Source of the DNA: Escherichia phage CMSTMSU
Reading direction: 5' to 3' (one strand)
DNA: 64,000 bases
Sequence record: MH494197.1
In this document: piece after piece, positions 9,818-27,163 of the stretch
Layout: each line of letters begins with the position of its first letter
How positions within the stretch are numbered: the stretch's first letter is position 1
The notes under the pieces: generated by a model
Database searches by the model: none
Told to the model about the DNA's origin: nothing
The model's input: the letters and a program-made list of their open reading frames with translations, nothing else
Program-made: the position numbers and the translations under genes

Positions 9818-9818
9818 G

Positions 9819-10802: not shown

Positions 10803-11153
10803 TCACGTATGGGCTATCATACAGATCATAACTTTTTGTGCACGTTCTTTTCGGCGTTCATACATGATTCTATCATACTCTTTAGCTTTCTGATTTGCTT
10901 CATTATACAATTTTAAAATTAGCAAAAATGCATCAAGATCGGGATAGTTTGCTGGATTGATAGTACTCAGCATAAATCGTTCTTCTTCAGTTCTAGCTAA
11001 GTCAAATTCATACTTAATAGTTTTATACCCACTCCATTTATATATATGCGTTACTTTATTAGTAAGTACATTATATTCAACGAAGTCAGTACTACCATCA
11101 AGTACACGAGTAATCTTAATAGATGTACCAATGACAATCTGTACAGAACTCAT
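10803..11153 (-). CDS. hypothetical protein (116 aa)
   Basis: ORF from track. Confidence 0.45.
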   Translation of the reverse strand: MSSVQIVIGTSIKITRVLDGSTDFVEYNVLTNKVTHIYKWSGYKTIKYEFDLARTEEERFMLSTINPANYPDLDAFLLILKLYNEANQKAKEYDRIMYERRKERAQKVMICMIAHT

Positions 11154-11267
11154 TTCTGAAGTTTTAAAGTAAAAATGTTATTACGGCGAAGATTAACTTC
11201 TCGATCTCCAATGCGAACATGCTTAATAACTTCCATTAATGGTTCTGGGACACCACGAATCGGCATG

Positions 11268-11834: not shown

Positions 11835-11997
11835 ATGTTCTCCTTAGTAAGTCATAGTATTATATCAGAGTTTCATTGCACTTACCAGCATGTTTTCATA
11901 ACTTCTGTGATGTAAATCATTTTATCTTTTAGTTCATAAGGGATGCAAATTTCACGGGCTTAACGTTGTGTTCTTTTGAAACTCATCCTCTTCGGAA

Positions 11998-12270
11998 TCA
12001 GCCGTAAAATGGATGCGTCACAAAGTTATCATCAACTGGACGATTATGTGGTTTCATTAATGCATCATGATTGACAAAATAATAAGCATCAATATCAGGA
12101 CGGAAATACAAACAATCAACCTTAATGCACGGGTGTAACCATAAGGACAAAGAATATGTTATTTGGTTACCAATTTGTCTTGGACCAGATGCAATTGTAT
12201 TGATGTTATTTTTATCTTGTACCATTTCATAAATGAAATCTATCATTTCACGTAGTTCAGATTCAGTCAT
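11998..12270 (-). CDS. hypothetical protein (90 aa)
   Basis: ORF from track; AAGGAA Shine-Dalgarno just upstream of ATG. Confidence 0.5.
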   Translation of the reverse strand: MTESELREMIDFIYEMVQDKNNINTIASGPRQIGNQITYSLSLWLHPCIKVDCLYFRPDIDAYYFVNHDALMKPHNRPVDDNFVTHPFYG

Positions 12271-12280
12271 TTTATTTCCT

Positions 12281-12308
12281 TAAAAAATACCCAGTACTAG
12301 ACTGGGTA
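12281..12308 (-). terminator. rho-independent terminator (hairpin tacccagt-ACTAG-actgggta plus U6)
   Basis: 8 bp perfect stem, 5 nt loop, followed on minus RNA by UUUUUU; contains AGTACT core. Confidence 0.55.
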
Positions 12309-12486
12309 TAAAGTAATGTTCAATCAGATTTCTTTTCGTAATCTGCAAAACAGTCAGGATTGTTGCACACAGTGAATCAACTGCTGCTGCGTTTTCATCA
12401 AGGGATTTCGCTAGTTCTTGAATCTCTTGAAGTTTTACTACTAAGTCAATTTTTGATTACTCATTACTTCTCCTATTGAATGTATT

Positions 12487-12792
12487 TTAGATGTTAATTT
12501 TGATACCAGATAGATCCAGTACTTTACGTATAGTAGGTTCTGGTTCAGGCTGAACAACCTCTTCAGGCTCTTGTACTGGAATCTTTGTGTTAATATTTAG
12601 ACCATCTTGAAGAATTTCAGGGATAATTCCATGCTGCACATCATTGTACATAGACACAACAGTTTCTGCACAAGATAACATTTCACGAACTTTAAACTGA
12701 TATCCTTGTGGTAAATCTTTGATGATTTCCATAACATCTAATAACTTCGTTTGTACATCAATAAGAATACTGTTTGATTTATCTGCGTCCAT
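12487..12792 (-). CDS. hypothetical protein (101 aa)
   Basis: ORF from track. Confidence 0.45.
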   Translation of the reverse strand: MDADKSNSILIDVQTKLLDVMEIIKDLPQGYQFKVREMLSCAETVVSMYNDVQHGIIPEILQDGLNINTKIPVQEPEEVVQPEPEPTIRKVLDLSGIKINI

Positions 12793-12831
12793 TAATCCAA
12801 CTCCACTACGTTATTTTTTTCTTTGTATTTA

Positions 12832-13281
12832 CTACAGTGGGTGAATCATTTTTGTCACATCACCTCGTAATTTCTTTTCTAGTGCGATGATACGCTTTAA
12901 TGTCTTAATTGACGGTCGTTTCTTTGTTAGCTCGGCTTTTGCTTCAGTATAATACTTTCGGATATATCCATATGCATAATACTTAGAACCAATAAAAATT
13001 TCAGCAACGGCTGGCTGATAACTCATTTCGTACCCATTAATGTCCACGGGTGATGCATAAAATACAATATTTGTATTACACGAAGAAATTTTAGCAACCA
13101 GTAAGTTAGCTTCAAGTTTATTCAAAATCAACGTAGTGGTTTCTTCTGCCTCGTCACTGTACTGCATAGCTGACATTAGAAGTTGAAAGGACTTGAAGTA
13201 ATTACTACCACTGATTACCGTATTGAAGATTAAGCCCAATGTAATCAGTACTAGTGTACCAAGACATATAAACAAAACCAA
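12832..13281 (-). CDS. membrane-anchored hypothetical protein (N-terminal TM helix)
   Basis: 149 aa; N-terminus LFICLGTLVLITLGLIFNTVI hydrophobic. Confidence 0.45.
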   Translation of the reverse strand: MVLFICLGTLVLITLGLIFNTVISGSNYFKSFQLLMSAMQYSDEAEETTTLILNKLEANLLVAKISSCNTNIVFYASPVDINGYEMSYQPAVAEIFIGSKYYAYGYIRKYYTEAKAELTKKRPSIKTLKRIIALEKKLRGDVTKMIHPL

Positions 13282-13312
13282 TATTCAACACTCATTAATA
13301 TATCCTCAGTTT

Positions 13313-13348
13313 GTATTTTATTAAAAGCCCCATCAACATTGATGAGGC
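13313..13348 (-). terminator. rho-independent terminator
   Basis: Hairpin gccccatcaa/ttgatgaggc followed on minus RNA by UUUUAAUAAAAU. Confidence 0.5.
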
Positions 13349-13358
13349 AGGAAATCAA

Positions 13359-13568
13359 TTACTTACGGTTTGCTTTACGCAGTTCAGAAAGTTCTTCTTG
13401 TAGACTTTTCTTCCATGCAATTAGATGAGCAAAACGGATTGGCCTTGCACCAGTACCGTGAAATACTGCGAGAGCTTCTTCAGCTTGATGAATCTGGAAC
13501 TGAATGTAGTTCACAGTGCGGTCGAAGTCGGTGATATCTAGTACTTGTGCGTTAGTTTCTTTAGCCAT
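13359..13568 (-). CDS. hypothetical protein (69 aa), apparently monocistronic between two terminators
   Basis: ORF from track flanked by hairpin terminators on both sides. Confidence 0.45.
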   Translation of the reverse strand: MAKETNAQVLDITDFDRTVNYIQFQIHQAEEALAVFHGTGARPIRFAHLIAWKKSLQEELSELRKANRK

Positions 13569-13593
13569 TTTAATACCCTTTTATTTCTTTTTA

Positions 13594-13616
13594 TGAAAAA
13601 CCCTCATCATTGAGGA
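13594..13616 (-). terminator. rho-independent terminator
   Basis: Hairpin cctca-tcat-tgagg followed on minus RNA by UUUUUCAUAAAAAG. Confidence 0.45.
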
Positions 13617-13704
13617 ATGGTTTGCATTTTACATCTGCCGATAATATACATTATATCATACTTTTCAGCGTTGTCCCAAAAATTAATTATTTTTAGAACA
13701 AATT

Positions 13705-14037
13705 TCACGACTGGTAACTCTGTTTCGTTTGATTCGGATTCATTATATCCGTTCTTCGTGAGAACGTCAATAACTTTTTAGAATCGATTGTAAATTTATC
13801 AAGTTCAGTATAACGATAATAACCAATGGTCTGACTGAACTCATACTCACGACGCTGACGGCAACATGTTTGTGTTTCTGACATAATTGCATTGATTAGA
13901 TAATAAGATTCAGTACTATCATTGTTTGGTACATAAATCTTACCATCAAAATGAATCACTTCATGCTTATTCATACAGTGAGTTAATCTCCGATTGAAGA
14001 ATTGAAATAATTTCCTTTTGAAGACCTGTAATTTCAC
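13705..14037 (-). CDS. hypothetical protein (110 aa)
   Basis: ORF from track. Confidence 0.45.
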   Translation of the reverse strand: MKLQVFKRKLFQFFNRRLTHCMNKHEVIHFDGKIYVPNNDSTESYYLINAIMSETQTCCRQRREYEFSQTIGYYRYTELDKFTIDSKKLLTFSRRTDIMNPNQTKQSYQS

Positions 14038-14234
14038 TGTTCAGTGAGGATAAACGTTTGGTCAATGCCATAAACTGTTTAGCGTCTTCTTTGGAACGGT
14101 CGTTACGAACTTTATCGGAACTCCAGTTAGCGTATGATTGCTCATCTTTTTGTTAAGAATGTCCCAGTCCAAACGGACTAGTTTTCGTTCTTTCTTAAGT
14201 TCGCTTAGGCGAGATTTCATTTCTTCTTTAGTCA

Positions 14235-14441
14235 TTACAAGGTTCCTTTCATAAAGTCAGGGATAACGATTACGATAGAAGGATTATACTCCACATATCC
14301 ATTCTTTGTCAATAGACTTTTGATATCAGAAATAACATTATCATGTTGTTCCATATCTTTATCGCAGTGAATTTCCAATTCTTTTAGGAAAGGTTGTTTA
14401 ACTGAAATTGATTGGGTCAGTGTTTGAATACGCTGCATCAT
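14235..14441 (-). CDS. hypothetical protein (68 aa)
   Basis: ORF from track. Confidence 0.4.
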   Translation of the reverse strand: MMQRIQTLTQSISVKQPFLKELEIHCDKDMEQHDNVISDIKSLLTKNGYVEYNPSIVIVIPDFMKGTL

Positions 14442-14649
14442 ATCAATTGGATCAGACTGAACTCATTACCAACATAAAGTGTGCCAGATGCATCCTTTTC
14501 AAGTAAGACTTCTAAAATTTTCATTTTGTACCCTTTAATGTACCAAAATTACGTAGAGTAAATCCGGAACTGGGAAATATACATCACAGTCAATGTCAGG
14601 ATTAATTGTCACTACCTCATTACACATTATATCACGAATCCACTTCCGT

Positions 14650-14997
14650 CTACGATTTTTGCATTAAATCGTTCCATTCTTTTCGTTCAATAACATATGT
14701 GTTAATCAAACACAAGTCATGACCACGTTTCGAAATATAACCAAGTACTACATCATTGTGGACAACACGTATAGTAACTTTTCCAATTCGAGTTCCTCGT
14801 ACTGCATTAGTACTAGTATCGTCGTAAATCAGTTCTATCCTAAGTGAACCATTAGATATAAGAGTTGTGGTATATTTTGAAACCATATTCTCAATTTCTT
14901 GAGTTAAATCGTCTCGGTTAAGGTACTCAAACACCGAATATGTCAACTCATTTGCATCCAAATATTGGACTGTTGGAAGCTGGGCAACCATATCCAA
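14650..14997 (-). CDS. hypothetical protein (115 aa)
   Basis: ORF from track. Confidence 0.45.
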   Translation of the reverse strand: MDMVAQLPTVQYLDANELTYSVFEYLNRDDLTQEIENMVSKYTTTLISNGSLRIELIYDDTSTNAVRGTRIGKVTIRVVHNDVVLGYISKRGHDLCLINTYVIERKEWNDLMQKS

Positions 14998-15061
14998 AGA
15001 TACAGGTTCTATGTATATTTTTCAATATCAGATGTTTTGACGAATAGATACCCTTCTAGCG

Positions 15062-15352
15062 TCATTGAACTAACAATTTCCGCATAATAAGAGTACAGAT
15101 AAAAACATTCGTCTCATTCGAATCAGTTTCTACCCAAACCTCTGGCTGTTTCATCTCATATTGTTGTAGAATTCGTTGTGTAAACCCAATGTAAAATCCA
15201 AGATTAACATCGGATTGAGTTTCAAATGGATTAAACATCAAATATGGATATTTGTCAAGATACTCATTGAACTTACGCTGGGTATCTCTATCACAATCAA
15301 TGATGTACTTTCGGAATTCAGAAATAATTACTTTTTCCAATGACATAATCAA
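15062..15352 (-). CDS. hypothetical protein (96 aa)
   Basis: ORF from track. Confidence 0.45.
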   Translation of the reverse strand: MIMSLEKVIISEFRKYIIDCDRDTQRKFNEYLDKYPYLMFNPFETQSDVNLGFYIGFTQRILQQYEMKQPEVWVETDSNETNVFICTLIMRKLLVQ

Positions 15353-15546
15353 TCCTCACGATGCATATAGTACATAAACATCGCCAACCATATGCAGAAT
15401 CCCACGCAACGAAGAAACAGATCAACTGTTGGGTCTGTACCACCATTAACTTGGTAAACGATTACTGGGATTAAAGAAATAGCAATAGACACTGTACATA
15501 AGATGAATGCAACAAACACCTCAAACATAAACTTAATCGTTTCCAT
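15349..15546 (-). CDS. small membrane protein (two TM helices)
   Basis: 65 aa with two hydrophobic segments; 4 nt overlap with downstream ORF. Confidence 0.45.
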   Translation of the reverse strand: METIKFMFEVFVAFILCTVSIAISLIPVIVYQVNGGTDPTVDLFLRCVGFCIWLAMFMYYMHRED

Positions 15547-16117
15547 TATTATCCTTCAATGTGTAGTGTAGTACATCTAAAAAGTTATACATTGATTCAT
15601 TACGCATAACCTTGATTGTTAAATTACCACAACCCAACATACGTTTGAGGCGACGCTTCACAGCAGTTAAATCATGAGAACTATTTGTGTACAGACCATT
15701 AACCTGTCCGAACAGTAGGAACATGAAGAATGTAATCATAATTCATTAGTAAGCGTTGATTATATTTCTTTAATGCTTGCTTGTATTCTGAAATATTTTC
15801 AAAGAATGTACAATAACGGTCATAACGATTCATTTTATTCAAAATTGAAATACGAAAAGCGTTACCACTATTCCAATCATCTTCAGTTGGGTTTGGGTTG
15901 ATATGTGCCATGTTAGCTGTACTATACCCACCACTTGTGAAAACTTCAGAATATCCATTCTCAAAACATACAATGTTGCTTTGTGTCCTCGGAATTCTTT
16001 ACGGTACTTTGACAGAACTTGAATGTGATTACGCTTGGACTTGTACATTTCGTAACCTTCATAATCGCCACTGAATTCACAAATTTTATCAACACCAGCC
16101 ATTTCGTATATCCTCAT
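15533..16117 (-). CDS. hypothetical protein(s), frame-interrupted region
   Basis: Three overlapping ORF fragments at 15533-15739, 15699-15911 and 15839-16117 in different frames. Confidence 0.3.
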
Positions 16118-16633
16118 TTGATTAATATAGGAGTATTATACATACTCCATTTTCATGTGTCAAGCTTTATAATACGGAAGACTTTTCACTAAAGATTCTG
16201 ACGTATTATTTTTACCCATGTACTACCGTTGTCATTGGATACATATCCAATACCATTAACAAACTTACGCATAATACCAGTAAAAATATTAGTATACACC
16301 ATTACTCAGTATCCTTTGGTTTAGAATGTAAACCATACTTTTCATCATAACGATCATAGGTAGTGCCATTAGTACTAGTTTTGATGCTTTCGGTGCGATT
16401 GATTGGTTCGATTTTGACACCACGATAACCAATCTCTTCTTTAAATTGTTCCCATGATTCACGTAGACTCATTTTAGTCCCTTTTTGTTATTTCATACAC
16501 TCACGTAGGTCAATCTTTTCAACTGAACCACCGAGTACTAGATAGTGAAAATTAGAATCTTTGTTTGCCATATTCAAAAGATCTGCTTTCTGTTGAAGCG
16601 TAAAGCGTGAAGTACTGTTACGTACTGGCATAG

Positions 16634-16828
16634 TTACTCCTTAAAGTAGATATCACGAATTTGCTTAATCATCTCTAACTCTTGAAGTCCTATCATACCA
16701 AAGTTTTCTTGTACTGTCAACTGTTGGAAGTACATTTCCTCTAAATTATTATAAGGAATATCCACTAATGATAAAGGTACTCGTTCTTCACTGAATGCCA
16801 GATCTTCAACTAAATGTTTTATAATCAT
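16634..16828 (-). CDS. hypothetical protein, acidic-FQ motif family member (LEEMYFQQLTV)
   Basis: ORF 64 aa with conserved motif. Confidence 0.45.
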   Translation of the reverse strand: MIIKHLVEDLAFSEERVPLSLVDIPYNNLEEMYFQQLTVQENFGMIGLQELEMIKQIRDIYFKE

Positions 16829-17156
16829 AACAGTAAATGAATCTTTTGTATATGAAATTTGTAAAACGTTTGGTTAGTAGTGAACATTGTGTTTGATGGA
16901 TGGAAACCCATTTCAACAAATACTGTATCTTTATCATTATGTGTGCAATATGTACATCTTGAATTCGCAAGAACTTTAGATTTTGGGTAATAAAATCACC
17001 CAGCAACTTCTGTCGTTTCCAGTCCTCATATACAACTGGATGCTTAACCTTCTTCAAACGGTGCAGTACTGTCATAGTTTTTCCAGTCCAATGAATCGAA
17101 ATCGATTTGTTCAGGGTTATCAACAGCGACAACTCGTGCATTATGAAGAGTTTCAA
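16806..17156 (-). CDS. hypothetical protein (116 aa)
   Basis: ORF from track. Confidence 0.4.
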   Translation of the reverse strand: MKLFIMHELSLLITLNKSISIHWTGKTMTVLHRLKKVKHPVVYEDWKRQKLLGDFITQNLKFLRIQDVHIAHIMIKIQYLLKWVSIHQTQCSLLTKRFTNFIYKRFIYCYDYKTFS

Positions 17157-17207
17157 AGTAGCCGTTCCACGGTGTTCGTAATGGAACTGTCACATCGCCA
17201 ACTTTAA

Positions 17208-17453
17208 CTAAGAATGAATATTCTGGTGATATTGGGTCAAACCACTCTTTTGTTTAGCATTTTCGACGATGGTTTCGTGTTCTTTTGTATAGCAATTATC
17301 TTGCTTCATATAAAACACCCAATGCTCTTTTAGGCACTGTAAAGCAGCAACTGCTTCCTCTTTAGAAGACCATTGAATATCAATTGTATTAAGAACGTCA
17401 TAACAATTTTCAGTATCACCTGTAGTGTAATGTACTTCAATGCAGTATTTCAT
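17208..17453 (-). CDS. hypothetical protein (81 aa)
   Basis: ORF from track. Confidence 0.45.
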   Translation of the reverse strand: MKYCIEVHYTTGDTENCYDVLNTIDIQWSSKEEAVAALQCLKEHWVFYMKQDNCYTKEHETIVENAKQKSGLTQYHQNIHS

Positions 17454-17487
17454 TATTCAACACCTTTTAGTAATTTACAAATTTCAA

Positions 17488-17907
17488 TCATATGATAATA
17501 ACATGTATTCCAAAATTGCCCAGTAGTACTACCAACATCATGCACAGTACTTTGTTGGAAAACATATTCATCATTGAACAACTTTTAATGTCATCAATGT
17601 AAAATTCTGGTTTTGAATCATTATTGTATTCAATACTCGTTTCACCATCTGGATCAAGTGAAATTGATGATATGTCGTGAATTCCTATCGGATTTGTTGG
17701 ATAAATTCTCAACGTAAGAGGATAGAAGTCTGGATCGGTTTCATATGTATATTCGATTATGTAATTACCATCTCCAGTGATTGAGTTATATTTAAATGTA
17801 GGTTCAAATACATTATGGATATTATAGCCTAGTTTATTCATCTCGTTAAGATGTAATAATATTTTATGTAAAGTCCCTAATACATGAATCAAATTATCAA
17901 TTTTCAT
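17488..17907 (-). CDS. hypothetical protein (139 aa)
   Basis: ORF from track. Confidence 0.45.
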   Translation of the reverse strand: MKIDNLIHVLGTLHKILLHLNEMNKLGYNIHNVFEPTFKYNSITGDGNYIIEYTYETDPDFYPLTLRIYPTNPIGIHDISSISLDPDGETSIEYNNDSKPEFYIDDIKSCSMMNMFSNKVLCMMLVVLLGNFGIHVIII

Positions 17908-18007
17908 TTACGATCCTTTGAAAAGTTCAGTTTAAAAGTTTTACCAAATTCCATTGTAGCTTTACCCAGATTGTTAATATTTTCTTTCAACATTTCTTGC
18001 ATCTTTC

Positions 18008-18205
18008 TCACACTTTCATTCCGGCTTCTTCTTCTTTGCGGAGGATTGGTCGCAATCGTTCCTGAATATCGTTGAAACGTGTATTGAGTTCAACCAATGA
18101 TTCATATGTGAAATCTTTCATGTCGATGATAGTACTTCGTTGAAAGAATTCTTCTTCGGATAAATTACTTAAAATGATTTTATCACTACCAATAGATAAT
18201 GTCAA
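18008..18205 (-). CDS. hypothetical protein, acidic-FQ motif family member (SEEEFFQRSTI)
   Basis: ORF 65 aa with conserved motif. Confidence 0.45.
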   Translation of the reverse strand: MTLSIGSDKIILSNLSEEEFFQRSTIIDMKDFTYESLVELNTRFNDIQERLRPILRKEEEAGMKV

Positions 18206-18481
18206 TTCATCATCTTGATTTTTTTAATTACAATACGTACAGGTGATTTTATAGTAATGTGAACATCATGATTATTAAAAGTTTCAGTTTTGTTTGACGT
18301 TCTGAATTGTAGTCTTCCGGTTAGTGCGTGTACTGGCATTGGGTTCTTTTACCAGTAATAACATCTTCCCACGAATCAAGGATATTATTAATAATTTTAA
18401 CATAAGGAACTGTCATATATGCACCTATGAAAAATCCACGCATAGCGTGGATCTGTAATTAATCGAGTATAGTAACTTCAA

Positions 18482-18935
18482 TCAAACGAATTTCGATGAA
18501 TTCGTTTTCAGTTTCCATGATGAACCTAATTTCTTATTAAGTTCAGTTTTAACATCACTTTTAAATTTTCCCATAGTATTAGGAATAATTTGTTTGGTTA
18601 GTTTATCGTAACCACAATAAAACATAGGTTTCTCCCTTCGAGATATTAGCTGAACAAAATCCTTTGGATATGCAGGTATATTATGCATCACTTCATGAAT
18701 GCACTCAGTACTTGAATCTTGTACTTTGTACATTACATTAAGTTTACCTTTGAAAGTGCCAATCATATCAACAATAATACCTTTACCGGATTTAAGTAAA
18801 GTTCCATTCTTTGTATGAGAACAATAGAATACCTCATCACCAATATTAGGATAGTACAAATTAAATTCTAATTCTTCCTTTGATGACTGACGTTGAAATT
18901 TCATTACACGTTCAGTATAGGTGGGGTAGTTCTTC
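18482..18935 (-). CDS. hypothetical protein (about 150 aa)
   Basis: Track ORF 18482-18988 trimmed to internal Met because the methyltransferase C-terminus occupies another frame to 18940. Confidence 0.4.
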
Positions 18936-18939
18936 ATGT

Positions 18940-19797
18940 TCAAAAGAATATCTCTCTTAGTAAGTGTGATATAACTGGCATAGTCCATCCATTCCCAAGC
19001 ATTTTGTATGCTTGTGTCTTACTAGACACTTTAAAGAAATCTACAGGAATACCCTGTAATTTACAACATTCTACTACACTTAAGTGTCTATAGTCAATAT
19101 TTCTTTTACCATTCTCCAATAGATATTGACGATTAATCGTTGGTCACGAAACACCAACTGTCGTCTTGATTTATTAAAGTACTGGTTACAATCACCACCC
19201 TTAAAATAGTTAGCATCTATACAGTACGAAGCGGTTCTGTCAGTGTACCAACCATCTTCAATGATATCTTGAAGTTTAGGGCATTTGATAATGCAGGTGG
19301 TATAAAAAGCTTATCAGTACTGCACCAGTAGTATCTCTGCCTGAAGTGAGGCGTATAATGCTGGGAATTTATCAGTACTGGTGTGATTCCTAAAATACTA
19401 TTAATGTATTCTTTGAAATCTTCCTTCATTTTAACATTCTCGAACAGAAATTGCAAGTTTGGATTTACACTTTTGATGTGCTCAAAAATATCAACCATAA
19501 CCAAAAATAACTGTCCACGTATATCATTCAAGCCACCTTGCTTACCAGCAACAGACCGAGCTTGACATGGGAATCCTCCCATGAGTAAATCTATCTTATC
19601 CCACTCAATATTCCATTCTTTCCACTTAGTCACATCACCTAACTGGATAATATCAGGAAAATTCTCGGAAGATTCAGCAATTGCGTACTTGTCAATTTCA
19701 GATGAGTAATATTTTTCAACTGGAATACCTGCATCTGCCAATGCCATATATCCAACGCTCATTCCATTAAAAGTGACAGTACTCTGATAGGTTTCAT
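18940..19797 (-). CDS. DNA (cytosine-5)-methyltransferase, orphan; at least 3 frameshifts
   Basis: Manual three-frame reading: N-term MKPIRVLSLF-NGMSVG (motif I), GGFPCQ (catalytic PCQ), ENV (motif VI), ECCKLQGIPVDFF and GNGWTMPV (motifs IX/X). Confidence 0.75.
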
Positions 19798-19849
19798 ATA
19801 AAATCCTTTTATATTGTTAAGGTACTATAATACATTATAGCATCTTATT

Positions 19850-20436
19850 TAGAAATCTTCCAGACTTTTTCATCGCACCATCGAGAAGTACAGATGATCG
19901 CAGATGCAAGAATTGAAGCACTGGCTCGACCACCACCAAGTAAGTACTGGCTAATGACACCAATCATATTGAAGACTTTATCATACTCAGCAAGGAGTTC
20001 AAAATCCTTCTTCCAACATTGATATTCTTCTTCAGTAACATTAAACTCATCACCAAGTTCATTTAAAATCTTTTAAGTACTGCACGATGTTCACTCATCT
20101 GATTCCCCATATCGTTCGTCGTAAAAATCATCATCACGGTCCAATGGTTCTTTTGGTTTTCTGCCATATATTTCCTCACATGGTAAATGTATTATCACCA
20201 TCCATATCTTCATCTGTAGCTTCAGCTAAGGTCTTAATCGTTAGCAATTCACGCTTCACGTACAACATGAAGACCTTTTCATAATTACCGAACATCATCT
20301 CAGGTGACATGTAATTCTCCGTTACAATGACGATTGGACGGCCCTGTGACAGCATACGAAACATAGTACGGTATTTGTCAAAGGTGCGAAATTCATCCAT
20401 GTTCATCATGTGGCGTTTACGAACTACTTTAGTCAT
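19850..20436 (-). CDS. hypothetical protein (frame-interrupted)
   Basis: ORF 20176-20436 continues downstream in other frames. Confidence 0.35.
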
Positions 20437-20450
20437 TTTGATACCTTTAG

Positions 20451-20711
20451 TTAATTGAACTCGATTTCTGGATAATGATTATAGAACATCTCACGTACTG
20501 CGTCAAGCTGTTCTTTAAATTTCTCAATGTCATCAAGAGTTAGTACAGTGTTACTAACTGTACTCAACTGAAAAAGTGCCTCTTCAGTACTGTTTTCTGA
20601 TAAATCAAATGTACATGATGAATCATCTGTTATAATATTATCACATATTTCAAATGTGTCAATATGAACATCATTGAGTAGATCACCACTATAATCATTA
20701 TATATGAACAC
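20451..20711 (-). CDS. hypothetical protein, acidic-FQ motif family member (TEEALFQLSTV)
   Basis: ORF 86 aa with conserved motif. Confidence 0.5.
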   Translation of the reverse strand: MFIYNDYSGDLLNDVHIDTFEICDNIITDDSSCTFDLSENSTEEALFQLSTVSNTVLTLDDIEKFKEQLDAVREMFYNHYPEIEFN

Positions 20712-20907
20712 AAAAATGTATGATGGTTTTTATCTCAGTTTCTGACTCATAGGCTACCAAATCATATGTTACGTAACATTTAAAGTCAGGTGAATCGTAT
20801 TCCATAGATACAATTCCTATATCACGATATTGATTCGCTTCACTGATTAAATCCGGTATAGGTGTAATACTAAGTAAATGGAAAAACTGTCCGGATTTAG
20901 CATTTGA

Positions 20908-21351
20908 TTACCTTCGGTTTTGCTCTGTGATATCAAACATAGATAGAACGAAATCATTTAGCTTTTCAACACAATTGATTATAGTGCTTAAATCAGAATA
21001 ACTAACTGTTAAATTTTTAACAAGAGATTCCTGAAAGTATCCTTCTTCAGTTGAGCAATAACTCACATTTGAGATAGTCTCATAATGTATATCTTTGCTT
21101 GTTTTACATGTTATAATTTCTATTATATCCGATGTTGTGTTATATAATAATATAAATGTTGTTGTTCGTGAATTCTTATTGTAAAATGCGAGTTCAGTGC
21201 TGTCATATGTTTTCTCAATAAGAACATTGTACTCTTCCGAAAACGATGTGGAAATTCTAATTATCTCTTCTGGATCAGGAACATAAGAGCCATCAAATTT
21301 ACAAGACAATGCAATTTCAAAATGATTTTTTATTTCATCAATTTTCATCAT
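20908..21351 (-). CDS. hypothetical protein, acidic-FQ motif family member (TEEGYFQESLV)
   Basis: ORF 147 aa with conserved motif. Confidence 0.5.
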   Translation of the reverse strand: MMKIDEIKNHFEIALSCKFDGSYVPDPEEIIRISTSFSEEYNVLIEKTYDSTELAFYNKNSRTTTFILLYNTTSDIIEIITCKTSKDIHYETISNVSYCSTEEGYFQESLVKNLTVSYSDLSTIINCVEKLNDFVLSMFDITEQNRR

Positions 21352-21382
21352 AGCTCACCATTTAATTTGCTATTTACATATT

Positions 21383-21742
21383 CTAATGCTTTTTAACAAT
21401 GCCAATTTCGGTAACTCCTATTACATTTTTCTCGATTAACGACAATTGAAATAGTTCATCTTCCTCAATATCAATACTATGGGTTCTTGACCAATAATCG
21501 TTGAAGTCATATGCATATCGTATTGTATTTTCTTTAATATCAAGTACCAATATAACCATACCATCGTGTAGGTATGTCAGTGTTTTTCCGTATATATTAA
21601 AAATTAACCTATCTGGTGTACCCAATGGAAGATGAATTATATTTTGTGTAGTTCCAACAATAACAAAATCATTATCTATATTTTTATTCAAGTCACCTAG
21701 AATGTCATATATAGTAGTCATGTTAATCTTGACCCTCAGCAT
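21383..21742 (-). CDS. hypothetical protein, acidic-FQ motif family member (EEDELFQLSLI)
   Basis: ORF 119 aa with conserved motif. Confidence 0.5.
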   Translation of the reverse strand: MLRVKINMTTIYDILGDLNKNIDNDFVIVGTTQNIIHLPLGTPDRLIFNIYGKTLTYLHDGMVILVLDIKENTIRYAYDFNDYWSRTHSIDIEEDELFQLSLIEKNVIGVTEIGIVKKH

Positions 21743-21757
21743 TTCTGATGATTCGCA

Positions 21758-21988
21758 TTACTTCTCTGGATACGTTGTATACTTTTTATAGTACTCAAAT
21801 GTAACTGAACCAAAATCATTAACAGTACTATCCATGAAGAACGATTCTTCGGTGCAATACACACCAGTAATTGAAACATGCTCTTGATGGAATTTAGCAT
21901 CTTTCCAGTAACGGAATTCGAAAATAAATTGACCGTCATGACCGACCCTACAACACTCAGCACGGTCACTGTCTACGCAGCAAATCAC
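21758..21988 (-). CDS. hypothetical protein, family variant (TEESFFMDSTV)
   Basis: ORF 76 aa; motif matches 1978-2406 variant. Confidence 0.45.
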   Translation of the reverse strand: MICCVDSDRAECCRVGHDGQFIFEFRYWKDAKFHQEHVSITGVYCTEESFFMDSTVNDFGSVTFEYYKKYTTYPEK

Positions 21989-22138
21989 AATATCCCTTTC
22001 GAGTCATACCAGATATTTCCAATATTTGTTTCAATAACTGCATAATCAATTTTTGTAGAATTGGGAATTACACCTTTTTGCCAGTACTAGACTGGTATTA
22101 TCAATATCCAGTAAACTTACCATATCAACTCCCCACTA

Positions 22139-22534
22139 TTACTGTGTTTTAATTTCTAACAATTCACTATACATCTTCTTCAATTGTACAATATCTTCAT
22201 ATAAAATACCACCCATATCATCAATCAAAGAACGTTGGAATAGTGATTCATCTGACTGTATCGTGTCCAAATCAGAAATTTTCAATACTGTAACTGGGTT
22301 TAGGGTGTTTACAATAAGTTTGTTTGTGTATGGTATGTATGTGATCTTGATATTCATTTCCGAATCAAGGGCATACAACCTCAAAACAGACAAATCACCA
22401 CAAAGTTGGATTTTTGGTTCATCAAACTCATCAGACCACCACATAGTACTAGTCATATAATTGACGTGTTGGTTCAAATGTGATATATCCAAATCGAAAT
22501 AATATTTTAGTTCATTGTGTAAATCTAAACTCAT
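22139..22534 (-). CDS. hypothetical protein, acidic-FQ motif family member (SDESLFQRSLI)
   Basis: ORF 131 aa with conserved motif. Confidence 0.5.
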   Translation of the reverse strand: MSLDLHNELKYYFDLDISHLNQHVNYMTSTMWWSDEFDEPKIQLCGDLSVLRLYALDSEMNIKITYIPYTNKLIVNTLNPVTVLKISDLDTIQSDESLFQRSLIDDMGGILYEDIVQLKKMYSELLEIKTQ

Positions 22535-22589
22535 AAATTTATCCTCTATGCATCATTATCTTACAGTGTAGGATAAACCCACGATAATG

Positions 22590-22838
22590 TCAAGATGTGA
22601 ATTGCTTATACCAGTGATACAGTTCTTTCAATTCTTCAGTACTGAATAGAACATCTTCAATCGTTGTTTGTTGGAAGTGGTAATCTTCGTTTAAGTACAT
22701 TGAAATATTTTTATATACTTTTCGATTACATTTCCCAAGAAATGATGTTCTTTTGGATGTATATTCAATAAATGTTAACTTATCTAATTCTACATCCAAT
22801 GACAATTTCATACAGTATTCAGTATCATCTACGTACAT
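22590..22838 (-). CDS. hypothetical protein, family-like (EDVLFSTEEL)
   Basis: ORF 82 aa. Confidence 0.45.
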   Translation of the reverse strand: MYVDDTEYCMKLSLDVELDKLTFIEYTSKRTSFLGKCNRKVYKNISMYLNEDYHFQQTTIEDVLFSTEELKELYHWYKQFTS

Positions 22839-23002
22839 AAGTTTATTTGAATAACAATCAACTGTGATATATTCTTTATGTGAGAATTGGTATATACCAT
22901 TAAATTTTTACCATTTGTACTTCTGAATTTTTCAAGGTAATAAGAGAGTGGTTTAGATATTGTACTACCAATAGTATTATTCATAGAACCTCAAAATTTA
23001 GA

Positions 23003-23030
23003 CAAGAAAAATGCCCCGAAGGTCGGGGCA
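23003..23030 (-). terminator. rho-independent terminator (strong GC hairpin)
   Basis: Hairpin tgccccga-agg-tcggggca followed on minus RNA by UUUUUCUUGUC. Confidence 0.6.
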
Positions 23031-23139
23031 GTACGAAAAAGATTTTGTACAAAAAGGGAATAATACAATAAAATAATAACGCATCATTATTATGTAAGGG
23101 AGGAAAGTAACATGATAATGTTAACCATTACTGGTATAA

Positions 23140-23687
23140 TTATTTATCATTTAATTCTTTTAATTGAGCTTGTATATCACCAGAAAGTTTACGGATTTTC
23201 TTGAAACAGTAAACACTATCATCAAGTTCAAGTTCTAGGCCGTGTGTGATTGCATAAAGCATTTCAGCAAGTACTAGATCCTGACGCATCCAGTTACCAT
23301 TCTTATAGGTTGTCATTACACAATAAGGACAGTGGCTGTTTCCGGTTTGTTTACCGAACACAGATTGGATTGTATCATGCTTGAAACCCACAAAGATTGG
23401 TTGATCTTGTTGATTTCAGCTACTACGTCCATTTGTGCACCAGTGTTGATTGCAAACACTTGGTCACCGTTCTCGGTTTTGTTAATGTTTAGTTCAATAT
23501 CACTACCAAGTTTACGAACAGCCAATGTATAAAGTAGGATTTCATACATATCATAATTGGTTGTTTCGCCATTTGGTGCAGTTACATCGAGACTAACACC
23601 ATGCATTTTAACTTCAGTACTGAATCCATCTTTATCTGCTAGAAAATCAGTGATTTGTTCAGTTAGGATTTTAATTTGGTCAATCAT
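23140..23687 (-). CDS. hypothetical protein with Cys-rich HCPYC segment (one frameshift)
   Basis: Fragments 23316-23687 and 23140-23391 are contiguous in different frames. Confidence 0.4.
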
Positions 23688-23703
23688 TATTCATATCCTT
23701 ATG

Positions 23704-23729
23704 TTGGAAAAGCCCCCATTACGGAGGCT
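23704..23729 (-). terminator. rho-independent terminator (imperfect hairpin)
   Basis: agccccc-attac-ggaggct followed on minus RNA by UUUUCC. Confidence 0.4.
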
Positions 23730-23742
23730 TTTGTTAATCTAA

Positions 23743-24180
23743 TTATAGGGAAGCTTCGTATTCAGCTACAATGTCAACCATCTCATTGACAAAGTTGATG
23801 TGGTCATGAGTTACAGTACGGAAATCATAAACCAGTGATTGTTGGAAGAATACGTCTTCAGCCAGATTACCTTCAAAGTTCAGGTCGATGTTTTCTTCAT
23901 CGTTGGTTGGAGCAACTTTGATATTTAGTTGATTTTCATCAACGACCAATTTCACTACACAACCCAATGCAATCGCCAGTACATAGGCAGGTTTCTTAGC
24001 TGCTTCAGAACGGAATGGAGCACGTAGTGCAAATGGTGCTGCTAATCTCATCATTCAGTTCTTTATATTTAACGTTAATCATCAGTTCTTCAATTTTGAC
24101 GCTCTCGATTACACGACCAGTTTCAGCAGCGAAGAAAGAGTGGTTACGGATAGTTTGTTCGATATTCATGTGTTATTCCT
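23743..24180 (-). CDS. hypothetical protein, acidic-FQ motif family member (AEDVFFQQSLV); N-terminal frameshift
   Basis: ORF 23743-24054 plus upstream ATG-initiated segment in another frame. Confidence 0.4.
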
Positions 24181-24362
24181 TATATAGATTGCTAAAGTTA
24201 CGAAGATTACGGTTTGCTTTAAACTGTTTTAAATCACCAAATCTATCATCAACGATAAAAGTGGCAGCCTGTTTTGATTGGCATATTGTACAAATCAACA
24301 TACCCTGTATTGTATACTCGGTTGAACAATTTGTACAGTACTTTTTTCATAAAGTTCAGTAC

Positions 24363-24698
24363 TCATAAAACCTTCACATCAGTACGTTTATCTCTTTCTT
24401 CTTTCTTTACCTCATCGGAGCGGGTATCTTCTAATTGTAACACAACTTCTTTCAGAATGTCAACATCAATCATTGCTTCTTTGTATTGAAAGTCGTTTAC
24501 GCCGAAAATATACTTCAATGCAACCCATACACGTTTGTACCATTTTAAGAAAGGATTCAAACGCATACTCACCAGACATTGACCAAGTTTATCATCTCCA
24601 TGTTCTTGTGTCAAGTCAAATTGTGAAATGTGAACACAATGTTCCGTATTATCGCCACAACTACAACGTACTATAAATTCTTTGCTGTCTTTGCTCAT
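24363..24698 (-). CDS. hypothetical protein (111 aa)
   Basis: ORF from track. Confidence 0.4.
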   Translation of the reverse strand: MSKDSKEFIVRCSCGDNTEHCVHISQFDLTQEHGDDKLGQCLVSMRLNPFLKWYKRVWVALKYIFGVNDFQYKEAMIDVDILKEVVLQLEDTRSDEVKKEERDKRTDVKVL

Positions 24699-24833
24699 AC
24701 TGGATAAGCCTTCATAAATTGTTTTAGAACTCCAAACTTAGAAGCACTGTAATCATACTGATAACTTAGCTCACGTTTATCATTCATTCGATAAACCATA
24801 TGATTGTTTGGATAACCTATTCTAACAGGTTTG

Positions 24834-25127
24834 TTAGGATTTGCAAAAAATTGCCCATTCTTTTACAGGAAAAACGTTTTCAGATAACATCTTCACATCT
24901 TTACTGTAATACTTCATTGCTTGGGTACAGTGCTTGTAATCTTCTGCACTCAGTTCTTCACACACAACACTGTGCGTTTCAGTACTGGATACCCATGACT
25001 CTTCTTCATAATATAAGTCAATTACATCTTCTACTGTATAGCTATCAGGTAAATCATAATATACCCAATTACTAAAACCAGAGCTTACACCAACTCGAAT
25101 TCGATAGTACTTCATATTTTTTATCAT
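24834..25127 (-). CDS. hypothetical protein (97 aa)
   Basis: ORF from track. Confidence 0.45.
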   Translation of the reverse strand: MIKNMKYYRIRVGVSSGFSNWVYYDLPDSYTVEDVIDLYYEEESWVSSTETHSVVCEELSAEDYKHCTQAMKYYSKDVKMLSENVFPVKEWAIFCKS

Positions 25128-25348
25128 CCGATTTTACATAATAGTAACATACAATGCAGTGAATTACAAGAAGAATAATTTCTACTACATTCAGTGCCAC
25201 AACATGCCCTTGTGGGACCGTAAGTGACAATAACAACATTATAGTAGGTATTACGAATATTGTCCATGTTTTTTCATTTTATTTCCTTAATGTAGGCAAA
25301 TGGTAAAAATACAACCTCTACACGGAAATGCAGTTGCGAGTGCATCAA

Positions 25349-25765
25349 CTATAGATTTGTTTTATTACATTGCCATACTTTTGTAACTTTGTGTTGGAAT
25401 ACCTTGCCATCTTTTACTAACCAATACATTTGCATTTTAACAGTACAGTTATCAGATGGTATTAGTAAATCTTCCATATCATATGAATTAAAGATTCTCT
25501 CGTTCATATAATCTCCTAGTGAAAAAGCCAGATTCTTTCTTATATATTCGGCGACACAATCAGTAGTTTGTGTATTTGTGAATGCAACAACTTCATTCGA
25601 TACACCATTCCCATTACACAATGGACAAATCCCCATATACTTAGGTGTTGGAACTGTATCTAGTTTATATTTCCCTGAAGATATCATGTATTGTTGTGGT
25701 AATACATCCAAAGAAATAATATAATCTTCATCGAATTGCTTACAACATACCCAACATTTACTCAT
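25349..25765 (-). CDS. hypothetical Cys-rich protein (possible zinc ribbon)
   Basis: 138 aa with CWVCC and CPLC pairs. Confidence 0.45.
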   Translation of the reverse strand: MSKCWVCCKQFDEDYIISLDVLPQQYMISSGKYKLDTVPTPKYMGICPLCNGNGVSNEVVAFTNTQTTDCVAEYIRKNLAFSLGDYMNERIFNSYDMEDLLIPSDNCTVKMQMYWLVKDGKVFQHKVTKVWQCNKTNL

Positions 25766-26050
25766 TGTGGTTCTCCTTCAAAACAATTCTTATATCTTCG
25801 AATGTTTTAACAAACCAGTCATGTTCATCAGATACATCAACCACCTTCCCACCATAAACATAGTAATGATAGAAGGGTAACTTACTTTTCCTCAATCGTT
25901 CAGCAAGTTCTGGGTTTTGAAATATCTTAGCACATATTGCATCCGGATACGAGAAATGCATTCGGGTGTCATTTCAATACGGTCGTGCATATACTTGTTC
26001 GCCGCTGCTTTGCAGCAGCACCGACACTTTTCTAAGATCATCATGTTTCT
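25758..26050 (-). CDS. hypothetical protein (frame-interrupted N-terminus)
   Basis: ORF 25758-25961 with upstream continuation in another frame. Confidence 0.35.
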
Positions 26051-26237
26051 GGCCTGTTAAAACCAAAAATAAAAAGTTTCTACCGATGGGAACCAACCGT
26101 AGGGTTCTAAGGTAAAACTATGTGACGAAAAGTTAGATAGATCCCTACCTAACTTAGTTTTAGCTTTACTATAGATATTAATGTGTCTGTATCCGTCATC
26201 AGTAGGGTCAATATAGTTAAATGACTCTTCAGGAAAT

Positions 26238-26597
26238 TCAAACATAATTACTCTTCTTCACCAGATGGTGTACCACGTAGTTTATCAAAATCAACCCAAA
26301 TGCCATGCTGGTTTTGAAGCGACATTTCTCATAGTACCAGCTATAGTCTGTTTCAACACCGGAAATTGAACGAACACTACAGTCATACATATTGTATAAA
26401 TGTGTACGTACAATGAATGTTCCGATAAGAAGAACAAACACAACAATACCAGTACAGATCTTTGGATGATCCATAATTAGGTCCAACACAGAACTGGTTT
26501 CAGTACTATCCATTTTACTACGACCGATGGCAACAAATTTCAGTACTGCTAATGATACCAGTAATGAAATAACAAGAACACTCAAATAAATTAGCAT
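26238..26597 (-). CDS. membrane protein (two TM helices)
   Basis: 119 aa; hydrophobic N-terminus and second TM segment. Confidence 0.45.
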   Translation of the reverse strand: MLIYLSVLVISLLVSLAVLKFVAIGRSKMDSTETSSVLDLIMDHPKICTGIVVFVLLIGTFIVRTHLYNMYDCSVRSISGVETDYSWYYEKCRFKTSMAFGLILINYVVHHLVKKSNYV

Positions 26598-27163
26598 ATT
26601 TAGACTCCTACACCAAAACGTAAAAGGATGTTATTAACAAACACAAAATCAAATGGAGACTTTGGTTCAGATACCGAGTACTGAAAAGTTTCAGTGGCAA
26701 AATTTTCCCTATTATGCCATGTTGATGAATCGATTAGTAATTGTTTATCACCAATTGACGTTGAATGTAATGGGACGTGTGCTGATGAATTTATGGAATA
26801 CGCATTTAGTTTTCCTTGTTCATCAAATGTAACACAAAGGTAATATCTCTTCTCAACATCAGGGAACGCTCTTTAATATACGAATATATTGATTCATTCA
26901 AATCATCATCATCCCTTGTCTTAGAACCGAGAACTTGAGCAAAAGACAAATGACGTTTAGGTTGGATCGTTCCGGTCTTTTAGAATGAATTCTTTGGTTA
27001 AGTAAAAGTTATTGTGTTTTACCTCAATATTAACAGTTTTGAAGTTTGTGATTTTATCATATACGTTCCTAAAACTGTTATATCCCATGTACTAATTTCC
27101 TGCATCGTTGCAGTAACTAGTTCTTCTAGTTCTTGGATAAATGGCAAATCGTCTTGATTAAAT

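What the first reader, a model, noticed from the sequence alone, without database searches (positions are those of the whole stretch)
18940..19797. Orphan C5-cytosine DNA methyltransferase with no adjacent restriction enzyme
All diagnostic C5-MTase motifs are recoverable across three frames. No endonuclease partner is visible, so this looks like a protective or epigenetic orphan enzyme. Its target is unknown; the over-represented CAGTACTG site is one candidate worth testing.
Basis: partly seen in the sequence, partly recalled or inferred. Interest (0 to 1): 0.45.

Follow-up and report, generated by a model that had tools for sequence, protein, structure and literature searches.

The report
Intact phage methylase, nanopore frameshift artefacts
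This is an ordinary, already-annotated phage DNA cytosine methyltransferase gene that only looks broken because the genome is an unpolished nanopore assembly; the same error pattern shows the phage DNA was modified at every CCWGG site, not at CAGTACTG.

Summary
A C5-cytosine methyltransferase gene lies on the minus strand at 18940-19797, split over three frames. The window is Escherichia phage CMSTMSU (MH494197), a 121Q/PBECO4-like jumbo phage assembled from MinION/Albacore/Canu reads without polishing. The three frame breaks are 1-nt deletions in homopolymers. The one change next to the catalytic PCQ (W80R) is a garbled CCTGG. Relatives carry an intact 286-aa gene under strong purifying selection (dN/dS 0.07). 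Across the window there are 299 deletions against 4 insertions. All 38 CCWGG sites of the closest relative are corrupted, against about 7% for other 5-mers, and half-sites are not affected. This is the known basecaller signature of 5mC at Dcm sites, so the native DNA was modified at CCWGG. CAGTACTG really is over-represented (32 observed, 0.8 expected) but shows no such signature. No nuclease partner is recognisable nearby. The enzyme is compact, and its closest solved structures are eukaryotic DNMT3 catalytic domains. It is not a Dcm/EcoRII-type protein. I could not decide whether this enzyme or host Dcm writes the CCWGG mark. The gene is already known, so interest is low to moderate.

The parts
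18940..19797 (-). C5-cytosine DNA methyltransferase gene. It is 858 nt in this record and 861 nt (286 aa) once the three missing bases are restored. It is the orthologue of 121Q gp91 and fEgEco12 g455.
   Evidence: Pfam PF00145 at 4.7e-37 for the intact orthologue and 1.7e-21 and 1.5e-9 for the window fragments. TIGR00675 scores 119 bits against a cut-off of 100.65.
19770..19773 (-). Artefactual 1-nt deletion no. 1: T4 on the gene strand where relatives have T5. It splits motif I (VLSLFNGMSVG).
   Evidence: column 39.
19562..19570 (-). Motif IV catalytic Pro-Cys-Gln codons (CCATGTCAA on the gene strand), intact.
19556..19560 (-). Corrupted Dcm-type site inside the gene. The + strand reads CCGAG where fEgEco12 and 121Q read CCAGG (gene strand CCTGG). 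This produces the apparent W80R change (PCQAWS to PCQARS).
   Evidence: columns 253-254.
19612..19612 (-). Single substitution (G to A on the gene strand, D62N) relative to both relatives. It may be real or an error; I could not tell.
   Evidence: column 200.
19279..19281 (-). Artefactual 1-nt deletion no. 2: C3 on the gene strand where fEgEco12 has C4, at the start of the target-recognition region.
   Evidence: column 532.
19142..19143 (-). Artefactual 1-nt deletion no. 3: C2 on the gene strand where fEgEco12 has C3. After it the reading frame returns to the first frame.
   Evidence: column 670.
19804..19808 (-). Shine-Dalgarno-like AAGGA, 6 nt upstream of the ATG.
   Evidence: Read directly from the sequence. 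The promoter scan gave nothing above chance.
1..64000 (.). Window-wide basecalling-error signature. All 38 positions where fEgEco12 has CCWGG are corrupted, mostly to CC-GG, C--GG or CC--G (for example window 745, 1610, 3840, 7250, 19556, 62550). No intact CCWGG is left in the window, where about 39 are expected. There are 299 deletions against 4 insertions, mostly in homopolymers of 3-7 nt.
   Evidence: Method paper PMC6256653. Known basecaller behaviour, PMC6591954.

Best explanation
The locus is a real, intact, conserved, solitary phage-encoded C5-cytosine DNA methyltransferase. It is the CMSTMSU orthologue of 121Q gp91, 286 aa, with a compact DNMT3-like fold and a short target-recognition region. 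Its apparent split over three frames and the W80R change next to the catalytic cysteine are consensus errors of an unpolished MinION/Albacore/Canu assembly. Three are homopolymer deletions and one is a garbled CCTGG. Inferred mechanism: the enzyme uses S-adenosylmethionine and the PCQ cysteine to flip out and methylate C5 of cytosines on replicating phage DNA. With no cognate nuclease, the role would be protective (anti-restriction), not part of a restriction-modification pair. Shown indirectly: the packaged DNA that was sequenced carried a modification at essentially every CCWGG site and at no other motif detectable this way. Not resolved: who writes that mark. My single most likely target for this enzyme is CCWGG (about 40%). 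That would copy the host's own Dcm mark, would block EcoRII-type enzymes, and would not create McrBC (R-5mC) targets. Almost as likely, host Dcm makes the CCWGG mark and the phage enzyme has another target, for example a CpG-containing motif.
For: Identity of the record: protein P0031, '[Escherichia phage CMSTMSU]', equals the window ORF including PCQARS. The sequencing method is stated in PMC6256653. Intact orthologues exist in 33 or more phage records. dN/dS between fEgEco12 and 121Q is 0.073. Errors: 299 deletions against 4 insertions, concentrated in homopolymers. The window has 769 private differences, against 132 and 143 for the two relatives. CCWGG sites are corrupted 38 of 38, against 7.5% for 5-mers in general and 6.6% and 4.3% for the half-sites. 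All 34 sites that WPEC5 covers are intact there. Albacore-era default models miscall Dcm sites and shorten homopolymers (PMC6591954). Family assignment: PF00145, TIGR00675 and phrog_116. Model: pLDDT 94, with the top 50 PDB matches all DNMT3A/B/C at TM about 0.8, and sequence-level agreement. Solitary status: no Pfam hit above the curated cut-off and no PADLOC hit in nine flanking ORFs, only unknown-function PHROG families in the four of them that were scanned, and homologues alone in phage contigs. CCWGG is not depleted by base composition (38 observed, 39 expected) while other G+C-rich palindromes are. GCGC is 0 against 60 expected, CCSGG 3 against 21, and CCGG 16 against 60. This fits a protected site.
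Against: Nothing here links the CCWGG mark to this enzyme rather than to host Dcm. The protein is not Dcm/EcoRII-like: NF007772 scores 21 bits against a cut-off of 710, and only over motifs IV-VI. For the related phage RaK2, whose homologue is about 63% identical (judged from K64-1), the authors mention 'data not shown' bisulfite evidence for methylated CpG (PMC3622015). That points to a different target. The absence of a second error motif is weak evidence, because the basecaller may tolerate 5mC in other contexts such as CpG. No activity, expression or protective effect has been measured.
Confidence: 0.8

Rival explanations
1. Host Dcm writes all the CCWGG methylation seen in the error profile, and the phage enzyme has a different target that leaves no basecalling signature, for example a CpG-containing motif.
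For: The protein is not a Dcm/EcoRII subfamily member. The RaK2 paper reports methylated CpG by bisulfite, with the data not shown. The closest structures are the CpG-specific DNMT3 enzymes. Hosts in the Enterobacteriaceae normally have Dcm (PMC6591954).
Against: CpG and GpC have identical window-private error rates (3.7% each), and no NCGN context stands out. Complete corruption of 38 of 38 sites implies near-complete methylation of about 386 kb per genome copy during lytic growth. By my inference that is demanding for a low-abundance host enzyme. CCWGG escapes the palindrome avoidance seen for other G+C-rich sites.
Confidence: 0.45
2. One reading: the enzyme targets the over-represented CAGTACTG, or its core AGTACT or GTAC.
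For: CAGTACTG occurs 32 times against 0.77 expected and AGTACT 140 times. The sites are better conserved between relatives than average 8-mers: 0.56 against 0.37, and 0.67 against 0.32. So the DNA element itself appears to be under selection.
Against: There is no excess of window-private errors at CAGTACTG (2 of 25), AGTACT (4 of 113) or GTAC (9 of 333), while every CCWGG is hit. The target-recognition region is only about 80 aa, which is short for an 8-bp site. By my own knowledge, methylating the C of GTAC would create A-5mC (R-5mC) McrBC targets at hundreds of sites. Protective methylation does not predict over-representation of the target.
Confidence: 0.05
3. The gene is a true pseudogene in this phage: a decayed methyltransferase with real frameshifts.
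For: As deposited, the reading frame is broken three times, and the record annotates only a 176-aa fragment.
Against: Every lesion sits in a homopolymer or a CCWGG site. The same lesions occur about once per 214 nt across the whole window, including replication and nucleotide-metabolism genes. The deletion-to-insertion ratio is 299 to 4. The assembly was unpolished Albacore/Canu. Relatives at 99% identity are intact.
Confidence: 0.03
4. It is the methylase half of a restriction-modification system whose nuclease is one of the small unannotated neighbouring ORFs.
For: Restriction endonucleases are notoriously hard to recognise by sequence. The downstream ORF (18482-18935, phrog_28599) is tightly packed against the methylase stop codon.
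Against: The neighbours have no Pfam hit above the curated cut-off and no PADLOC hit. Those scanned against PHROGs (four ORFs) fall in phage-specific families of unknown function. Distant homologues of the methylase sit in entirely different phage neighbourhoods without a conserved partner.
Confidence: 0.05

Closest known systems
121Q gp91 (AIT13988.1), fEgEco12 g455 (XBS49537.1), WPEC5_CDS0257: the annotated 'DNA cytosine methyltransferase' of Asteriusvirus-like jumbo coliphages
   Same: Same locus, same neighbours and same 286-aa protein. The repaired window sequence differs from fEgEco12 by D62N only.
   Different: The window copy carries three 1-nt homopolymer deletions and a garbled CCTGG, all attributable to nanopore consensus errors. 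None of these orthologues has a published specificity.
Catalytic domain of mammalian DNMT3A/DNMT3B/DNMT3C (e.g. PDB 6W89, 6KDA, 5YX2)
   Same: These are the best sequence matches among solved structures, over the full length (E about 1e-23). They fill all top 50 Foldseek matches (TM about 0.8, 25-28% identity). The two share a compact size of about 285 aa, a short target-recognition region and a motif I of the type RVLSLF(D/N)G. DNMT3B's best phage family is the same phrog_116, and hhalign gives 99.7% probability.
   Different: There are no PWWP or ADD regulatory domains. It is a viral or prokaryotic protein. The central target-recognition core (CIDANYxKGG...QYFxKSRRQ) does not align with DNMT3. 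CpG specificity and DNMT3-type oligomerisation were not tested. I built no phylogeny, so 'closest solved structure' does not mean sister group.
E. coli Dcm / M.EcoRII (CCWGG-specific C5 methyltransferases, about 472 aa)
   Same: Same enzyme superfamily and chemistry. CCWGG is the only motif shown to be modified on this phage's DNA.
   Different: It is not a subfamily member. NF007772 scores 21 bits against a cut-off of 710 and matches only motifs IV-VI. The phage protein is 186 aa shorter and has an unrelated target-recognition region.
Classical type II C5 methyltransferases M.HhaI and M.HaeIII
   Same: The ten conserved motifs and the fold are shared. The N-terminal halves align at E 1e-15 to 1e-17.
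   Different: M.HhaI aligns only over its N-terminal half, and M.HaeIII only up to about residue 204. Their cognate nucleases have no counterpart here. GCGC (the HhaI site) is completely absent from these phage genomes, and GGCC is half-depleted. Automatic labels in some records, such as 'HaeIII methylase' or 'HpaII methylase', are not evidence of specificity.

Membership tests
C5-cytosine DNA methyltransferase (Pfam PF00145 / TIGR00675) | HMM score above the curated threshold | tested here: met
   PF00145 scores 128.6 bits against a cut-off of 22 for the intact orthologue. The window fragments score 77.4 and 38.2 bits. TIGR00675 scores 119.1 against 100.65.
C5-cytosine DNA methyltransferase (Pfam PF00145 / TIGR00675) | Catalytic Pro-Cys motif IV, together with ENV (VI), QxRxR-type (VIII) and GN (X) motifs and the SAM-binding motif I | tested here: met
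   GGFPCQ, FENV, FRQRYYW, LGNGW and SLFNGMSVG are all present in the window once its frames are joined. P77, C78, E120, N121, V122, R153, R155, G269 and N270 are invariant in 87 homologues.
C5-cytosine DNA methyltransferase (Pfam PF00145 / TIGR00675) | Demonstrated transfer of methyl to C5 of cytosine in DNA | not testable with these tools
   The only evidence is indirect: the native DNA carried a basecall-disturbing modification at CCWGG, and the writer is unknown.
Dcm / M.EcoRII subfamily (NF007772, PRK10458) | Full-length match, including the CCWGG target-recognition domain, above the curated cut-off | tested here: not met
   21.4 bits against a cut-off of 710. Only residues 68-123 match.
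Type II restriction-modification system | A cognate restriction endonuclease gene adjacent to the methylase | tested here: not met
   No Pfam hit above the curated cut-off and no PADLOC hit in nine flanking ORFs spanning about 2 kb on either side. Four of those ORFs were also scanned against PHROGs and hit only unknown-function families. Homologues sit alone in phage contigs. Divergent nucleases could escape these models.
DNMT3-type de novo methyltransferase | Catalytic-domain fold and full-length sequence similarity | tested here: met
   phmmer E 1e-23 over residues 2-282. Foldseek TM 0.75-0.80 for the top 50 matches. hhalign 99.7% probability.
DNMT3-type de novo methyltransferase | Chromatin-reading N-terminal domains (PWWP, ADD), CpG specificity and oligomerisation through the RD interface | tested here: not met
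   The protein is 286 aa and consists of the catalytic domain only. CpG specificity and oligomerisation were not testable. CpG shows no error signature.
Intein-interrupted allele of this methylase (as in UE-S1 and TH47) | In-frame Hint/LAGLIDADG insertion before the catalytic Cys | tested here: not met
   The window, fEgEco12 and 121Q read GGFPCQ without interruption. UE-S1 carries the insertion.

The most novel reading that the evidence does not exclude
The compact, DNMT3-like phage enzyme itself, and not host Dcm, writes the CCWGG mark. It would be a methylase with a minimal target-recognition region, unrelated in that region to Dcm/EcoRII, that has converged on the host's own 'self' mark. 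It would paint that mark on a 386-kb genome, blocking EcoRII-type restriction while staying invisible to McrBC. A further unexcluded possibility is that this large phage family (phrog_116) is among the closest prokaryotic or viral relatives of eukaryotic DNMT3.
Probability: 0.4. Interest if true: 0.5.

Novelty: already known. Interest (0 to 1): 0.3.

Why it matters
As a gene this is routine. The same methyltransferase is annotated in dozens of related jumbo phages and, in truncated form, in the source record. Three points have practical value. First, the frameshifts here and throughout this record are sequencing artefacts. Any pseudogene, frameshifting or motif-count claim drawn from this window must be discounted. 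For example, the window shows 0 CCWGG where about 39 are expected, and 33 CCGG where the relative has 16-17. Second, the error profile of an unpolished nanopore assembly serves as a free methylation assay. It shows full CCWGG modification of the virion DNA and gives no support to CAGTACTG as a methylation site. Third, it sets up a cheap decisive experiment (growth on a dcm-minus host) to learn whether a DNMT3-like minimal methylase makes the Dcm mark.

Tried and rejected
1. An unbiased 3- to 6-mer search for a second systematically miscalled motif. I masked homopolymers and CCWGG and used WPEC5 to keep only window-private differences. Nothing approached 100%. The best hits (CGTAGC 4 of 6, GGCACA 5 of 12, and G+C-rich 4-mers at 9-12%) look like ordinary context bias.
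2. A CpG-specific signature. CpG and GpC both show 3.7%, so the result is uninformative.
3. Relaxed specificity around CCWGG. Half-sites and CCGG are at background. CCSGG has too few sites (3), and they are confounded by homopolymers.
4. A second nanopore-type record for replication. TH47 has intact CCWGG sites and is not error-rich, and UE-S1 was sequenced on Illumina. This was a dead end.
5. Specificity from homologues. No hit carries a characterised enzyme name. Plasmid hits are few and distant. Genomic neighbourhoods of distant homologues are phage contigs without nucleases.
6. Literature on Asteriusvirus, Sharanji, UE-S1, BASEL phi92-like phages and the jumbo-phage review. All of it is annotation-level only. 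Only RaK2 has an experimental remark, with the motif text lost.
7. Searching papers for the literal string CAGTACTG returned only primer sequences.
8. The promoter and terminator scan around the gene gave nothing above chance.
9. CCWGG depletion as a 5mC-deamination footprint. Observed/expected is 0.97 by base composition and 0.71 by the Markov model, and CTWGG+CCWAG is 1.06. There is too little sequence to interpret.

Full report
WHAT IS THERE. The region 18940-19797 holds a minus-strand gene. Its ATG is at 19797-19795 and its TGA at 18942-18940. Translating the three minus-strand frames recovers every C5-methyltransferase motif, but in four consecutive segments. These are MKPIRVLSL; then NGMSVGYMAL...GGFPCQARS...FENV...FRQRYYW...ALSNA; then a short middle piece; then ENGKRNIDYRHLSVVECCKLQGIP...LGNGWTMPVISHLLREIFF. 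The window's own fragments match Pfam PF00145 at E 1.7e-21 for the N-terminal half and E 1.5e-9 for the C-terminal end.

WHERE THE WINDOW COMES FROM. Megablast places the region in 35 jumbo coliphage records of the 121Q/PBECO4 (Asteriusvirus) type. The best are fEgEco12 and WPEC5, at 99.2% identity with 8 extra bases per 2 kb. In these relatives the gene is one uninterrupted 861-nt ORF annotated 'DNA (cytosine) methyltransferase'. A protein-database hit named '[Escherichia phage CMSTMSU]' (176 aa, from a 386,442-bp contig) is identical to the window's broken ORF, including its PCQARS peculiarity. The window is therefore CMSTMSU, GenBank MH494197. Its announcement paper states MinION FLO-MIN106 sequencing, Albacore 2.1.3 basecalling and Canu assembly, with no polishing step mentioned. 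The host is given only as 'E. coli' (PMC6256653).

THE FRAME BREAKS ARE ARTEFACTS. In the gene, the window differs from fEgEco12 at six columns. Three are 1-nt deletions, each inside a homopolymer: T5 to T4 at 19770-19773, C4 to C3 at 19279-19281, and C3 to C2 at 19142-19143. One is a G-to-A change (D62N). The last two turn CCTGG into CTCGG, which makes PCQAWS read PCQARS. Across the whole window, compared with fEgEco12, there are 299 deletions and only 4 insertions, and most 1-nt deletions lie in runs of 3-7 identical bases. With WPEC5 as a third genome, the window has 769 private differences, against 132 and 143 for the two relatives. The orthologues are under strong purifying selection, with dN/dS 0.073 between fEgEco12 and 121Q. 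A true pseudogene is therefore very unlikely. The repaired window protein equals fEgEco12 g455 apart from D62N.

A METHYLATION SIGNAL HIDDEN IN THE ERRORS. All 38 CCWGG sites of fEgEco12 that align to the window are corrupted there, mostly by 1-3-nt deletions (CC-GG, C--GG, CC--G). The window contains no intact CCWGG at all, although about 39 are expected. The background rate for any 5-mer is 7.5%. The half-sites DCWGG and CCWGH are at 6.6% and 4.3%, and CCGG is at 6%. All 34 of these sites that WPEC5 covers are intact in WPEC5. This is the published behaviour of default ONT basecallers of that period. They miscall Dcm-methylated CCAGG/CCTGG sites in native DNA, which accounted for about 70% of consensus errors, and after that they shorten homopolymers (PMC6591954). 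The sequenced virion DNA was therefore modified at essentially every CCWGG. The 'mutation' beside the catalytic cysteine is one of those 38 sites. An unbiased k-mer search on window-private differences found no second motif with anything like this behaviour. CpG and GpC are indistinguishable.

THE CAGTACTG IDEA. The octamer really is over-represented: 32 copies against 0.77 expected from dinucleotide shuffles. AGTACT occurs 140 times. The sites lie inside coding sequence in different reading frames, without conserved flanks. They are better conserved between relatives than average 8-mers. The element is therefore real and probably under selection. As a methylation target it has no support. Window-private differences hit 2 of 25 CAGTACTG, 4 of 113 AGTACT and 9 of 333 GTAC sites, all at background. 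This test is one-sided, because a 5mC that the basecaller tolerates would be missed. By inference, an 80-aa recognition region is small for an 8-bp site, and 5mC at GTAC would create McrBC (R-5mC) targets.

WHAT KIND OF ENZYME. The intact protein matches PF00145, TIGR00675 and phage family phrog_116 over its full length. It is not a Dcm/EcoRII subfamily member, scoring 21 bits against a cut-off of 710. Among solved structures the best sequence matches are the catalytic domains of DNMT3B and DNMT3A, over the full length at E about 1e-23. M.HhaI matches only over its N-terminal half, and M.HaeIII only up to about residue 204. An AlphaFold model built from 87 homologues is confident (pLDDT 94.2). 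Its top 50 Foldseek hits in the PDB are all DNMT3A/B/C, at TM 0.75-0.80. In the reverse direction, DNMT3B's best phage family is phrog_116. The core of the recognition region (DR.KSYCIDANYxKGG...QYFxKSRRQ) is nearly invariant across the family and has no DNMT3 counterpart. The literature treats the prokaryotic source of DNMT3 as unresolved. I built no phylogeny, so I claim only 'closest solved structure'.

SOLITARY STATUS. Nine flanking ORFs of fEgEco12 have no Pfam hit above the curated cut-off and no PADLOC hit. Four of them were also scanned against PHROGs and fall only in phage families of unknown function. Homologues at 43-47% identity sit in unrelated phage neighbourhoods, next to ligase, RecA-like, portal and endolysin genes, and without nucleases. 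Homologues occur in 252 phage records but in only 6 plasmids. 'Orphan' is supported, with the usual caveat that nucleases are hard to recognise by sequence.

WHO WRITES THE CCWGG MARK. This is the open question. Three points favour the phage enzyme. It is the one C5 methylase reported in these genomes. Corruption of 38 of 38 sites implies near-complete methylation of a very large, rapidly replicated genome. CCWGG escapes the strong avoidance seen for other G+C-rich palindromes. Three points favour host Dcm. Dcm is nearly universal in E. coli. The phage protein's recognition region is unrelated to Dcm's. For RaK2, whose homologue is about 63% identical (judged from K64-1), the authors mention unpublished bisulfite evidence for methylated CpG, and digestion only by enzymes that tolerate Dam, Dcm, CpG and EcoKI methylation. 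I put CCWGG as this enzyme's target at about 40%, a CpG-containing or other motif at about 55%, and CAGTACTG, AGTACT or GTAC at about 5%.

VERDICT. The gene is real, intact in nature, solitary and already annotated in relatives, so its novelty is 'already known'. The three-frame layout is a sequencing artefact. The CAGTACTG target idea is not supported. Interest is low to moderate (0.3). It rests mainly on the untested possibility that a DNMT3-like minimal methylase makes the Dcm mark.

Noticed in passing
L008:13750-15630 (Escherichia phage UE-S1, ON568341.1); the same place in TH47 (L007, MT446416.1): In two relatives the orthologous methylase carries an in-frame intein of about 340 aa, inserted exactly before the catalytic cysteine: GGFP|CFPAGTMIM...NNIVVHN|CQAWS. 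It has Cys1, a terminal His-Asn, and the catalytic Cys as the +1 residue. It matches Hint_2 (3.8e-8) and LAGLIDADG_3 (3.4e-10). The window, fEgEco12 and 121Q have the intein-less allele.
   Followed up: partly
window 1432, 2277, 3431 ... 63830 (32 sites; two lie inside the methylase gene at 19315 and 19373): The palindromic octamer CAGTACTG occurs 32 times against 0.77 expected, and AGTACT 140 times. TCAGTACT is the commonest 8-mer of the region. The sites lie within coding sequence in different frames, lack conserved flanks and are better conserved between relatives than average 8-mers. The over-representation holds in 121Q, TH47 and UE-S1. Function unknown.
   Followed up: partly
whole window and loci L002-L008 (about 270 kb of Asteriusvirus-like sequence): GCGC is completely absent: 0 observed against about 60 expected in the window and about 240 expected in total. 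CCGG, CGCG, CCSGG and GGWCC are depleted, and several 6-bp palindromes (CAGCTG, CCATGG, AGGCCT) are absent. CCWGG and GCWGC are not depleted. This points to strong, selective restriction-site avoidance.
   Followed up: partly
whole window: The record is riddled with consensus errors, roughly one deletion per 214 nt (299 in 64 kb). Most ORFs longer than about 70 codons are therefore artificially split. This fits the inflated gene counts (767-938) in the announcement paper. Motif counts are distorted as well: 0 CCWGG, and CCGG inflated to 33 against 16-17 in the relative by CC-GG errors.
   Followed up: yes
window about 56124-56138 (compare L004:7567-8340, fEgEco12 g398): The window lacks a segment of about 790 nt that in fEgEco12 and WPEC5 encodes a 257-aa ORF of unknown function between the two ribonucleotide-reductase subunit genes. 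That ORF has no Pfam hit. It may be a mobile ORF.
   Followed up: partly
window 2426-2748: About 320 nt in the window have no counterpart in fEgEco12 at the corresponding junction. I did not examine this.
   Followed up: no
window about 8368-8712: Adjacent segments of about 165 nt match each other's counterparts at about 82% identity. They correspond to three tandem 165-nt paralogous ORFs (fEgEco12 g484-g486).
   Followed up: no
Literature: Klebsiella phage RaK2 (PMC3622015): The RaK2 paper mentions, as data not shown, that RaK2 DNA is cut only by enzymes tolerant of Dam, Dcm, CpG and EcoKI methylation. It also says bisulfite sequencing found methylated CpG in a motif whose sequence is missing from the held text. 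This is the only experimental hint about methylation in this phage group.
   Followed up: partly
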